Shown one piece after another: positions 12,001-15,000 of a stretch of DNA of 28,161 bases. Location of the stretch: IMG/VR virus record IMGVR_UViG_2579778529_000004, positions 1 to 28,161 of that record. The stretch is one strand, 5' to 3'. The stretch is from a virus. Lineage: Duplodnaviria; Heunggongvirae; Uroviricota; Caudoviricetes. How positions within the stretch are numbered: the stretch's first letter is position 1; every line of letters begins with the position of its first letter. The position numbers are program-made.

Positions 12001-15000
12001 GTCATAATCAATGCAGTCACCCGGTGTTGTGCGTATCCAGCCCGCCTTTACCCACTGGCGATAGATGGCGCGGTTTTTATTGGCGGGATTCTGTAGCTGA
12101 AATTCCGGCAGATAGTGACGGGAAACCAGCATAATCTTTTTACCGACCGGGAAGGCATAGCACACGCTGGAAATATCGCTGGTTGATGATAAGTCCAGCC
12201 CCGCGTAGCACTCCTGCCCGTATAAATCCGCCTCCGCGAACGTTCCGGCACACTCCGCCCATGCACCGTTACCCATCCACGGCGTAGCCCCCTGACACCA
12301 GATATTGAATCGCTTGGTGAGCATTTCCACCCACTGCGACGGAATACCCCGCGCTTTCTGGATGGTTGAGGCCAGTTTTTCACGATCGACGGAAACATCG
12401 ATATTGGGATTCGCCTTTATCCACATCGCCGGATCGTCAACCTCGCTTTCATCATCCAGCTCGTAAATCAGCACGAACATGGATTCGTTCACCTCTTCAC
12501 CATCCAGTATCTGGCAGCAATAGTCGTAGTGTTGTTTACAGGCTGAAACAACGTTGCTCCCCGATGTGGTGATGGCAAATAATACCCCCTCTGGACGCGC
12601 CCCCATTCCCAGTTCAAGCGCGGAATAAACCCCGTTGTCAGGGTGCAGGTGATATTCATCCACAATGGCAAGACTCGGGTTTTTCCCCTCAATGGTTGCC
12701 GCTTTTGCTGCCAGTGGCGTTAACAGGCTGTTGGTTTTCGGGTGTATCACCTTGTGCGCCTGAATATTTACCCGCTTTCGTAACGGTCGGGATAAAAGGC
12801 ACATCTGACGCGCATCATCAAACACGATCCGCGCCTGATCACGACTCACGGCGGCGGTGTAAATATCCTGCTGCCCGTTTTCCATAACCAGAAACCAGTT
12901 AGCTAGGATAGCGGCGACCGTGGATTTGGCATTTTTTCGCGGTACTTCAATGAATGCGCTGGTGTATTTGCGCCGTCCGGTGGCCTTAACCTTAAAGCCC
13001 AGGATGCAGGAAAAGGCGAACTGCTGCCACGGCTCCAGTTCAATGGGGCTACCGCGCATTGCGCCTTTTACGTGCGGACACACCCTGGAAAAGGCAATAA
13101 ACCGCTCCACGACCTCCTGATCGAACGTGTAAAGGGGGTTTTCGAGGTCAGAAAAATATCGTTTAACGGCCTGTTTCAGTCGTTTACAGGCCGTAATTTT
13201 GCCGTTTTTTACGCCTTCTGCGTACTCATGCCAGGCGGTCAAGCTCGTCCTCCTCCTCTGTTTCCGGTGGATTTCTGCGGCGGCTTACCGGGTCAAAACC
13301 CAGCAAAGAAGCCATTTTGATCATTATTCTTTCCGCGTCAGCCTTTGCGCTCAGGGCGGGGTTTCTGCTCTCGCTGCCCTGACTGTTAACAATGCTGAAG
13401 CCGCGCGTCGCAAGGTCTTCGACGGCTTTGCGGTATATGGAGTAGTTAACGCAATACAGTTCCAGATTGCTCCAGTCGGCGGGGGTAAGGTCTTCCCGCC
13501 CGGAAAGCTGGCGCGATTTTTCCTTCCACTGCCTGACCGCGATTTCATCCAGGTAAGCGGGGGCTTTTGGTGGTCTTGCCATGTTCTTTTTTCGCCCAAT
13601 TATTTTCAAAAAAATTCCCGTGCACAAAAATTTGAGGAGGCGGTCGGTGTCCGGCAGGGACGGTTTTGTCCTGAAAACCTCCCCCACCCCCTCTGACGGC
13701 CTCACCAGCGATTGCGAAAACATTCCATGACCTCGCGGTCACGGTCGGTTAATTGCTTCGCTGTGGTGCGTTCTGTGCGCCCTGTCCTGTTGGCTTTGTG
13801 CCCTGTCTCCTGTGTCTTCCATAAGTCACGCTGCCTTATCAGTCCACGTATCAGCCTGTTTTGCTCCTGTTCAGTCATCATCGCCATACATCCAGTCGTT
13901 ACGGTGTGCCGCCCGTTCTTCCTGCTCGCGATACATGCCCGCCTTACGGTTCGCTTTCGTGGCTGGATCTTCCCGTGTCGTCTTACGGTTGTGGCACGTC
14001 TGGCACAATGCCTGGTGATTCCACTCAGGCCAGAAGAGAACATCACCGCCGCCATTGATGGGAATGATGTGATCCACCACAAGAGCTGGCGTATAAATCC
14101 CCTTAGCCAGACAACGCACGCATAACGGGTTTTTGCTCAGGTACAGGGCGCGGTATTTGTCCCACTGTCGGGAATACCCGCGCGCGCGGCGGTGTCCCCG
14201 TCTGGCATCCTCTGCACGCCATGCAGCCCGCCTGTGCTCTTCACACTTTCCGGACTTCACGCGCTTATTACAGCCCGGCTCAGTGCAGCGCCTTAATGGT
14301 TGCCACGGCATCAGTACACCCCCACATCACGATAAACCGACCAGAGCGCAGAAATAGCCATAGGCAGTTCAGACTGCTCCACAGGTGAAACCGCTTCCCT
14401 GTTCTCGTACAGGAAAGCGATGTACATCAGGCAACCAACACGTATTGCCGGGGTAAATTCCAGCCCGTCTTCAAAACGTTTCCCGATATGCTTCTGGCAG
14501 GCTTCCAGCGCCGCATCGGTATACATTTTCAGAAGTTCGCCTTCTCCGGAAAAGTCATCAAGGCGAAGATGTGCCCTGACTTCATCAGGTGTAATTTTGT
14601 CTTCACTCATCTTTTTCACCTTTAATTTCCACAGTCTGCTTCCATGCCTGGCTGAACTCGTCGCCACCTTCACGCGGCGGCATTCCCTCACGCTCACGGG
14701 CTTCGTTCGGATTCATGATCCCGTTCTTAATCCCTTTCTCATACGTGGCGTAACGTTCAGTAGGTGTGGCGCGCAGTAAATCGGCTGAATCAAACTCAAC
14801 CAGATAACGGGTACCAGGTACGGGAGAAGCCACCAGCAAAGCGGCCTTGATTTGCTGTTCGAAGTTCGCCAGCCACGGACGCATTGTCATAGTCAGAAAC
14901 GCGCGGCTTGCCTCACTGAAATTGCTGTAGGTGCTGTTGCTGTATTCCTGCAGAAAAATCGGCGACACGTTGAACATCCGGGCGATGTCTTCAATGGAGA

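What the first reader, a model, noticed from the sequence alone, without database searches (positions are those of the whole stretch)
12307..12327. The insert's own terminase has a one-base mismatch at the site it targets in the helper terminase
The att core lies in a conserved terminase motif (helper F-F-T-K-H-M-N-V-W, insert M-L-T-K-R-F-N-I-W). The helper junctions read TTGGTAA, while the equivalent codons in the insert's terminase read TTGGTGA (12313-12321, CTTGGTGAG). This could protect the insert from integrating into itself and suggests the integrase recognises a conserved terminase sequence, which would let it target many related helpers.
Basis: inference. Interest (0 to 1): 0.6.

Follow-up and report, generated by a model that had tools for sequence, protein, structure and literature searches.

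The report
Known satellite embedded in helper terminase
A phage satellite sits inside the large-terminase gene of its helper prophage, a published arrangement, and the one-base difference at the matching spot in the satellite's own terminase gene is real but looks inherited by descent rather than an evolved safeguard.

Summary
The sequence facts hold. A 14.6-kb capsid-forming satellite (11065-25702) splits a prophage large-terminase gene (terL). It is flanked by a 7-bp direct repeat, TTGGTAA on the + strand. The homologous codons of the satellite's own terL read TTGGTGA (12314-12320).

The system is already published. It is a helper-embedded PICI of site group A:Terminase_1:246 (Tommasini, Mageeney & Williams 2023, PMC10111431). 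The window has that group's junction sequence and its diagnostic doubled TGTATTGC motif on both arms. That paper also raised self-integration avoidance for a related element.

The reading as an evolved safeguard is not supported:
- The two terL genes share only 45.6% nucleotide identity, and 99% of aligned 7-mers differ, so a mismatch is the default.
- The same codons (CTC ACC AAG) occur in close relatives that use an unrelated integrase and chromosomal sites.
- The att core has three natural alleles (TTACCAA, TCACGAA, TCACAAA), always identical at both junctions.
- One off-target insertion crossed a core with 4 of 7 bases different, so a mismatch is not an absolute block.

A mismatch in the crossover region could still lower recombination at the own site. 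That is untested. No satellite/helper chimeric terL was found.

The parts
25710..26730 (-). Helper prophage terL, N-terminal (ATPase) part. The called ORF runs 54 codons on into the satellite, down to 25537.
   Evidence: Joined to 10328-11064 it restores a 585-aa TerL.
25703..25709 (-). Integrase-proximal junction core, TTACCAA on the gene strand.
   Evidence: Identical to the other junction. The flanking bases differ, so the identity block is 7 bp.
25552..25571 (-). Doubled arm motif TGTATTGCacTGTGTATTGC, 135-154 nt from the core centre.
   Evidence: 0 mismatches, 0 expected by chance. It is the HE-PICI signature motif.
24308..25567 (-). Tyrosine integrase. The likely true start is the ATG at 25531 (MALNKLSDKK).
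   Evidence: Phage_integrase and Arm-DNA-bind_3 domains; always beside a terL fragment in 36 genomes.
23767..24075 (-). AlpA-family regulator or excisionase.
   Evidence: PF05930.
23131..23709 (-). Bro-N domain protein.
   Evidence: PF02498.
19332..21455 (-). DUF927 primase/replicase.
   Evidence: PF06048.
16434..17603 (-). Satellite major capsid protein (HK97 type).
   Evidence: PF05065.
15819..16379 (-). Satellite prohead protease.
   Evidence: ORF. The homologous gene is annotated as HK97 family prohead protease in L161 and L162.
14603..16036 (-). Satellite portal protein. The ORF call probably starts too early.
   Evidence: PF04860.
14311..14697 (-). Head-tail connector.
   Evidence: The homologue is annotated as head-tail connector.
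13871..14311 (-). Satellite HNH endonuclease.
   Evidence: PF01844.
13226..13723 (-). Satellite small terminase (P27 family).
   Evidence: PF05119.
11581..13242 (-). Satellite large terminase. It is 31% identical to helper TerL, and its gene is 91% identical in DNA to the terL of EcCIEDL933.
12314..12320 (-). The site in the finding: TCACCAA on the gene strand (TTGGTGA on +). It is homologous to the att core and one mismatch from it.
11140..11159 (-). Second copy of the doubled arm motif, TGTATTGCgcTGTGTATTGC, 79-98 nt from the core centre.
11058..11064 (-). terL-distal junction core, TTACCAA on the gene strand.
10328..11057 (-). Helper prophage terL, C-terminal (nuclease) part. An in-frame ATG at Met345 lets it be called as a separate ORF.
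   Evidence: Annotated 'terminase TerL endonuclease subunit' in RefSeq genomes.

Best explanation
The window shows a helper-embedded, capsid-forming PICI satellite of the published site group A:Terminase_1:246.

How it works: its tyrosine integrase recombines the satellite attP with a 7-bp overlap sequence inside the terL gene of an HK97-type E. coli prophage. This splits the gene between its ATPase and nuclease parts, and the satellite carries no replacement sequence. Helper terL can therefore be restored only when the satellite excises precisely. This is regulated gene integrity that serves the satellite.

The satellite's own terL is a distant homologue of the target. The one-base difference at its equivalent 7-mer is an inherited, effectively neutral state of the Leu codon (CTC) in this terL lineage. 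It was not installed as a safeguard against self-integration.

Shown here: the anatomy, the exact 7-bp block, the matched core alleles at both junctions, and the sharing of the 'mismatch' with non-embedded relatives.

Inferred: that the 7 bp are the strand-exchange overlap, that excision restores terL, and that heterology plus unsuitable flanks keep the own site from being used.
For: - Precise insertion. A 7-bp repeat flanks the insert and a perfect 585-aa ORF is restored in silico.
- Recurrence. The same configuration occurs in 33-36 complete E. coli genomes and 17 IMG/VR contigs. The empty site is present in 905 genomes.
- Satellite gene set: integrase, AlpA, Bro-N, DUF927 primase, capsid, portal, HNH, TerS and TerL. 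Its terL is 91% identical in DNA to that of EcCIEDL933.
- The doubled TGTATTGC motif is present on both arms. The junction sequence is the same as in the published catalogue, with att identity 'ttaccaa'.
- The two junctions always carry the same core: 13 contigs TTACCAA and 4 TCACGAA here, plus TCACAAA in the catalogue. These match the synonymous alleles seen in intact helper terL genes. This fits a requirement for identity in the overlap.
- The own-site codons are shared with satellites that use other integrases. A mismatch is expected in 99% of aligned 7-mers.
Against: - No experiment shows where the strands are cut, so the overlap could be narrower than the 7-bp identity block.
- By simple similarity to attP, the flanks of the own site (7/20) are hardly worse than those of the real attB (9/20). 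The core mismatch could therefore be the main functional difference. In that case it would matter mechanistically even if it did not evolve for that purpose.
- Every terL-embedded satellite sampled belongs to one closely related terL lineage. Shared ancestry cannot exclude purifying selection that keeps the mismatch.
Confidence: 0.8

Rival explanations
1. One reading: the single mismatch is a selected safeguard. Satellites carrying this integrase keep G (C on the gene strand) in their own terL. This stops attP from recombining with the own site, which would delete about 1.25 kb including the terL nuclease part.
For: - The mismatch lies inside the 7-bp identity block.
- Both sites have the same orientation, so recombination would delete essential DNA (sequence).
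- The own 7-mer TCACCAA is exactly one step from each of the three att core alleles and identical to none.
- No junction with a TCACCAA core appears in IMG/VR or in the published catalogue. A search of E. coli genomes also found none, but it had no positive control.
- The flanks of the own site resemble attP almost as well as the real attB does.
- No chimeric terL junctions exist in IMG/VR or in 5426 E. coli genomes.
Against: - The same codons occur in relatives with unrelated integrases and chromosomal sites.
- A mismatch is the null expectation.
- The helper allele TTC ACC that would be needed for a TCACCAA core is itself rare: 1 of 80 IMG/VR loci and 4 genomes. Its absence among occupied sites is therefore uninformative.
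- The perfect-match variant CTT ACC is also nearly absent from non-embedded relatives, 1 of 80. There is no contrast between the groups.
- The integrase has crossed 1-2-base core differences to produce three alleles, and once a 4-of-7 heterology. One mismatch is not a firm barrier.
- Two perfect TTACCAA 7-mers sit elsewhere in the satellite without consequence.
Confidence: 0.12
2. The own site is excluded by its flanks alone. The integrase core-binding domains do not recognise the sequences around it, so the base at the mismatch position is irrelevant.
For: - Two exact copies of the 7-mer (21565, 25131, opposite orientation) and 13 same-strand one-mismatch copies occur inside the satellite. 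The 7-mer alone cannot define a target.
- Own site and attB differ at 10 of 20 flanking positions.
Against: - The real attB and attP also share only 9 of 20 flanking positions, and the own site shares 7 of 20 with attP. No discriminating flank feature could be identified.
- The off-target site has only GAA in common beyond the core.
Confidence: 0.35
3. The arrangement is an assembly artefact or a random rearrangement between two prophages, not site-specific integration.
For: None found.
Against: - The junctions are identical in 36 complete genomes and 17 independent viral contigs.
- There is an exact 7-bp duplication and a perfect ORF is restored.
- An integrase sits next to one junction.

Confidence: 0.01

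Closest known systems
HE-PICI site group A:Terminase_1:246 (Tommasini, Mageeney & Williams 2023, NAR Genom Bioinform, PMC10111431)
   Same: - Same target gene and codon, and the same attL/attR sequences.
- Same 7-bp att identity (ttaccaa). The same alternative alleles (tcacgaa, tcacaaa) are listed in the supplement.
- Same doubled TGTATTGC arm motif.
- About 15 kb, and co-oriented with the late gene.

   Different: Nothing structural. The paper does not comment on the own-terL 7-mer of this group, nor on the match between core alleles and synonymous helper alleles (one search found no 'synonymous', 'coevol' or 'arms race' in the text).
Eco567.11capE, the founding HE-PICI (site E:Phage_cap_E:80)
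   Same: It is embedded in a helper late gene while carrying its own homologue of that gene. [quoted passage not shown] That is the same idea as the finding.
   Different: There the target is the capsid gene, the identity block is 10 bp and the differences are 'extensive'. Here the target is terL, the block is 7 bp and the own homologue differs by a single base within it.
Capsid-forming PICIs, prototype EcCIEDL933 (Alqurainy et al. 2023; preprint 10.1101/2022.09.08.507074)
   Same: Same gene order and packaging module: capsid, protease, portal, connectors, HNH, TerS and TerL. The terL gene is 91% identical in DNA.
   Different: EcCIEDL933 and its relatives sit at chromosomal attB sites (phoQ/roxA, thiM/rcnR) with integrases about 41-42% identical to this one. 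That paper defines these elements as using sites 'never occupied by prophages'. This element sits inside a prophage gene.
Lambda Int overlap-homology rule and secondary-site integration (textbook knowledge, my own recall)
   Same: - A 7-bp block is shared by attP and attB.
- The block is identical at both junctions in every natural copy.
- There is a rare off-target event with a heterologous core in which one junction keeps the satellite 7-mer and the other the chromosomal 7-mer. This is what segregation of a heteroduplex overlap predicts.
   Different: Cleavage positions, the need for IHF or AlpA, and mismatch sensitivity have not been measured for this integrase.

Membership tests
Helper-embedded PICI (HE-PICI) | Integrated inside, and disrupting, a late gene of a prophage, with no replacement sequence in attP. 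| tested here: met
   terL is split at codon 343/344. The N-terminal fragment runs into unrelated satellite sequence. The intact ORF is recovered only by deleting the insert.
Helper-embedded PICI (HE-PICI) | Key satellite genes are co-oriented with the interrupted late gene. | tested here: met
   All satellite genes and helper terL are on the - strand.
Helper-embedded PICI (HE-PICI) | Doubled motif tgTGTATTGCantgTGTATTGCa, one copy on each attP arm at fixed distances (81 and 132 bp in the paper). | tested here: met
   Exact copies lie at 11140-11159 and 25552-25571, co-oriented, with 0 expected by chance. They are 79-98 nt and 135-154 nt from the core centre. This agrees with the paper within a few bp, depending on the reference point used.
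Helper-embedded PICI (HE-PICI) | Integrase belongs to the HE-PICI clade and is followed by AlpA. | tested here: inconclusive
   A tyrosine integrase with an arm-binding domain, and AlpA, are present. The junction sequences are identical to catalogued A_Terminase_1_246 members. No phylogeny against the published clade was computed.
Helper-embedded PICI (HE-PICI) | Excises on induction and thereby restores the helper gene. | not testable with these tools
   Only the in-silico restoration and the existence of 905 genomes with the empty site are available.
Capsid-forming PICI (cf-PICI) | Encodes its own capsid, protease, portal, connectors, HNH, TerS and TerL, but no tail or lysis genes, in 10-15 kb next to int and alpA. 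| tested here: met
   Pfam domains. The insert is 14,638 bp. The gene order is the same as in EcCIEDL933.
Capsid-forming PICI (cf-PICI) | Uses chromosomal attachment sites never occupied by prophages (search criterion in the original paper). | tested here: not met
   The attachment site lies inside a prophage gene. This criterion was used for finding elements and is not a mechanistic property.
Tyrosine-integrase att site with a 7-bp overlap | Block of identity shared by attL and attR (hence attP and attB) of about 7 bp. | tested here: met
   Exactly 7 bp. It co-varies at both junctions in 17 of 17 contigs, in two alleles.
Tyrosine-integrase att site with a 7-bp overlap | Strand cleavage at the two ends of that block, and sensitivity to heterology within it. 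| not testable with these tools
   Evidence is indirect only: matched alleles in all on-target copies, and one off-target copy with different 7-mers at its two junctions.

The most novel reading that the evidence does not exclude
The 7-bp core may be the focus of a slow chase between helper and satellite.

- Helper terL genes vary only at the two synonymous positions inside the core (TTT/TTC and ACC/ACG/ACA).
- Satellites are found with the matching core in each common allele.
- The satellite's own terL 7-mer (TCACCAA) is the single intermediate that connects all three alleles.

If an attP core identical to the own terL were self-destructive, the own terL would constrain which helper alleles the satellite can follow. 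Helpers with TTC ACC would then be a refuge from it.
Probability: 0.1. Interest if true: 0.55.

Novelty: already known. Interest (0 to 1): 0.22.

Why it matters
As a discovery it adds little. The nested satellite, its terL target, its 7-bp core and the notion of avoiding self-integration are all in the 2023 HE-PICI paper.

What remains useful is a sharply posed experiment. This group offers a natural pseudo-target that differs from the true target by one synonymous base (CTC versus CTT). That makes it a clean system for measuring how much overlap identity, as opposed to flank recognition, sets the specificity of this late-gene-seeking integrase clade. The three naturally matched core alleles also give a way to ask how satellites track sequence change in their helpers.

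Tried and rejected
- Flank discrimination. I compared attB, attP, the own site and the published off-target site position by position. No flank feature separates functional sites from the own site, so I could not decide between core mismatch and flanks.
- Chimeric terL genes as a trace of recombination at the own site. None were found in IMG/VR or in E. coli genomes. This is negative evidence only, because such products might be lost.
- Counting helper alleles by short BLAST queries. This worked for TCACGAA (60 genomes), TCACAAA (27) and TCACCAA (4). It failed for TTACCAA (no match), most likely because the low-complexity filter masks the T7 run. That count is therefore inferred only as the remainder of 905.
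- The search for an occupied site with a TCACCAA core in E. coli genomes gave no match, but I had no search left for a positive control.
- Elevated diversity at the core wobble positions. They rank in the top 8-11% of third codon positions among 67 distinct helper terL sequences. This is suggestive, not significant.
- Rfam scan of the window: no hits.
- A genome-wide scan for integrase relatives reached only two Xenorhabdus genomes at 65% identity. It could not test how widely terL is targeted beyond what the paper reports.

Full report
**Anatomy.** Every convincing gene in the window is on the - strand.
- Reading that strand, an HK97-type prophage presents HNH (27361-27747), small terminase (26730-27212) and the first 343 codons of a large terminase (25710-26730).
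- A 14,638-bp insert follows (25702 down to 11065).
- The terminase then resumes (11057-10328) and is followed by portal, protease, capsid and tail genes.
- This late region is 97-98% identical to Escherichia phages vB_EcoM-606R7 and phi467.
- The insert encodes a tyrosine integrase, AlpA, a Bro-N protein, a DUF927 primase, an SSB-like protein and a ProQ/FinO-domain protein. It then carries a full head and packaging module: capsid, protease, portal, connector, HNH, TerS and TerL. It has no tail or lysis genes.
- Its terL is 91% identical in DNA to that of EcCIEDL933, the prototype capsid-forming PICI.

**The observation.** The insert is bounded by TTGGTAA at 11058-11064 and 25703-25709.
- The bases on either side of the repeat differ between the two junctions, so the identity block is exactly 7 bp.
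- Removing the insert and one repeat copy restores a perfect 585-aa TerL reading ...VNFFTKHMNVW....
- The satellite's own TerL is 31% identical to it (E = 5e-86). FFTKHMNVW aligns with MLTKRFNIW without nearby gaps.
- The corresponding DNA is CTTGGTGAG at 12313-12321.
- On the gene strand the core is TTACCAA and the own site is TCACCAA. They differ by one base, the third position of a Phe (TTT) versus Leu (CTC) codon.

**Is it more than chance?** It is not.
- The two terL genes are 45.6% identical at the nucleotide level in aligned codons.
- Of 1572 ungapped 7-mer windows, 1.0% match 7/7 and 6.7% match at least 6/7.
- A mismatch is what one expects. The site is more similar than average because Thr-Lys is conserved.
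- 7-mers within one mismatch of the core occur 65 times in the window, against 73 expected by chance.
- The motif is conserved only within this TerL subfamily. HK97 TerL (6Z6D) has FRNLNLN there.

**Extent and variability of the core.**
- The configuration recurs. This integrase occurs in 36 of 5426 complete E. coli genomes, always beside a terL fragment. The uninterrupted target occurs in 905 genomes.
- In IMG/VR I recovered both junctions for the embedded satellites. In 13 contigs both junctions read TTACCAA, and in 4 both read TCACGAA. I never saw a mixed pair.
- Intact helper terL genes carry the same synonymous alleles. Among the 80 closest IMG/VR loci about 60 are TTT ACC, 11 TTC ACG, 7 TTC ACA, 1 TTC ACC and 1 TTT ACT. 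In complete genomes TTC ACG is in 60, TTC ACA in 27 and TTC ACC in 4.
- Identical cores at both junctions, in alleles that match the helper, are what a requirement for identity in a 7-bp strand-exchange overlap predicts.
- The refutation condition 'core placed elsewhere' is therefore not met. The mismatch is inside the block.

**Is the mismatch specific to terL-targeting satellites?** It is not.
- The SM107 satellite has a terL 98.8% identical in DNA to the window's. It sits between thiM and rcnR and uses an integrase only 41% identical. It has the identical 51-nt context including CTC ACC AAG.
- Among 80 IMG/VR relatives, TCACCAA occurs in 18 elements with the window-type downstream arm and in 34 without it. 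EcCIEDL933-type elements have ATG ACA.
- In a wider pattern scan the Leu codon is CTG in 46 loci, CTC in 27, CTA in 4 and CTT in 1, with two further loci varying in the Thr codon. The single CTT ACC (a perfect TTACCAA) is in a non-embedded element, L308.
- The base is therefore a lineage marker at a freely drifting synonymous position.
The single mismatch moves to core position 5.

**Would one mismatch protect?**
- By established knowledge of lambda-type integrases, heterology in the overlap lowers recombination, so some effect is plausible.
- The barrier is not absolute. The family has produced three core alleles that differ by one or two bases.
- The published off-target copy Eco2384 has ...ttgcactGAAagtaac at one junction and ...ttaccaaGAAtattc at the other. 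This is the signature of recombination across a 4-of-7 heterologous overlap.
- A perfect 7-mer is not sufficient either. Two exact copies lie elsewhere in the satellite, at 21565 and 25131 in the opposite orientation.
- I could not find a flank feature that separates real targets from the own site. The flanks of attB and attP match at 9 of 20 positions, and those of the own site and attP at 7 of 20. Whether core or flanks exclude the own site stays open.
- Because the own site and the helper site are homologous and in frame, recombination between them would create chimeric terL genes. None exist in IMG/VR or in 5426 E. coli genomes.

**What is known.** Tommasini, Mageeney & Williams (2023, PMC10111431) described helper-embedded PICIs.
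- They reported 491 elements at 14 sites in prophage late genes, from one integrase clade.
- Their supplement lists E. coli and E. albertii elements named A_Terminase_1_246, with att identity ttaccaa, tcacgaa or tcacaaa. The junction sequences are the same as in this window.
- Their diagnostic doubled motif tgTGTATTGCantgTGTATTGCa is present once on each arm here, at 11140-11159 and 25552-25571.
- They interpret the arrangement as regulated gene integrity serving the satellite.
- The system, the site and the concept are therefore published. The only new detail is that in the terL group the own homologue differs by a single base inside the block. I also found that it is one step from each of the three core alleles.

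**Verdict.**
Targeting of a conserved terL site is correct and already known.
- The protective-mismatch idea is unsupported as an adaptation and untested as a mechanism.
- The most novel reading still open is that the own terL constrains which helper core alleles the satellite can follow. No occupied site with a TCACCAA core was found (and 76 without a positive control), but the matching helper allele is itself rare. I give this reading about 10%.

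Noticed in passing
window 11058-11064 and 25703-25709; loci L163-L179 and L183-L233: The att core exists in matched alleles. Both junctions read TTACCAA in 13 contigs and TCACGAA in 4; TCACAAA is in the published supplement. These mirror synonymous alleles of intact helper terL genes. The two wobble positions inside the core rank in the top 8-11% of third-position diversity in helper terL. The paper lists the alleles but does not discuss them.
   Followed up: partly
window 11346-11371 and 11445-11501: There are six copies of the 9-mer GCGGGTTAT: three in tandem on one strand, and three spaced 21-22 bp apart on the other. They flank an AT-rich stretch in the 517-bp non-coding region between the satellite terL and the junction. 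This looks like iterons (origin or packaging site). No function is assigned.
   Followed up: no
window 11065-11079: The attP arm next to the core reads in frame TGA AAT ATT CTT ACC AA, that is stop-N-I-L-T-K, resembling helper N-F-F-T-K. Over the 15 nt ending at the core, attB matches attP at 12 positions and the satellite's own terL matches it at 10. In Arsenophonus the attP/attB identity block is 15 bp (AATTTTATAACAAAG). attP may descend from, or mimic, a terL sequence.
   Followed up: partly
L180 and L182 (2174-2440); L181 (2373-2897): Integrases 65% identical to this one occur in Xenorhabdus. In L180 and L182 the integrase lies just after the first ~60 codons of a lambda-type portal gene, downstream of a lambda-type TerL and a gpW-like gene. 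This matches the paper's putative site B:Phage_portal_2:21. In X. bakwenae (L181) the same kind of element sits at the 3' end of a chromosomal membrane-protein gene.
   Followed up: partly
window 25537-25709 and 10328-11053: The split helper terL yields two callable ORFs. One is an ATPase fragment extended by 54 satellite-encoded codons that overlaps the integrase start; the paper's supplement flags 'terminase/int fusion' mis-annotations. The other is a nuclease fragment starting at an internal ATG, annotated in RefSeq as 'terminase TerL endonuclease subunit'. Whether either fragment is made or active is unknown.
   Followed up: no
window 18117-18659: The satellite encodes a ProQ/FinO-domain protein (PF04352, E = 9e-25) between the SSB-like gene and the capsid gene. 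The SM107 and EDL933 relatives have a PerC-family regulator at about this place instead.
   Followed up: no
window 21770-23130: This ~1.3-kb stretch between the primase module and the Bro-N gene has no convincing ORF, only a 318-aa GTG ORF of odd composition, and no Rfam hit. It corresponds to the 'dynamic zone' where the HE-PICI paper places immunity repressor RNAs.
   Followed up: no
L308 (IMGVR_UViG_2924902001_000005), - strand, around position 11628: One capsid-forming PICI relative has CTT ACC AAG, a perfect TTACCAA, at the homologous place in its own terL. It shows no terL-type junction within 2.5 kb downstream.
   Followed up: no
H1, NZ_AP027404.1 3468224-3486044: The only 100%-identical genome copy (E. 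coli EC416) spans 17.8 kb where the query spans 16.5 kb, and it includes an IS1414 transposase. That strain therefore carries an extra IS insertion in this region relative to the window.
   Followed up: no
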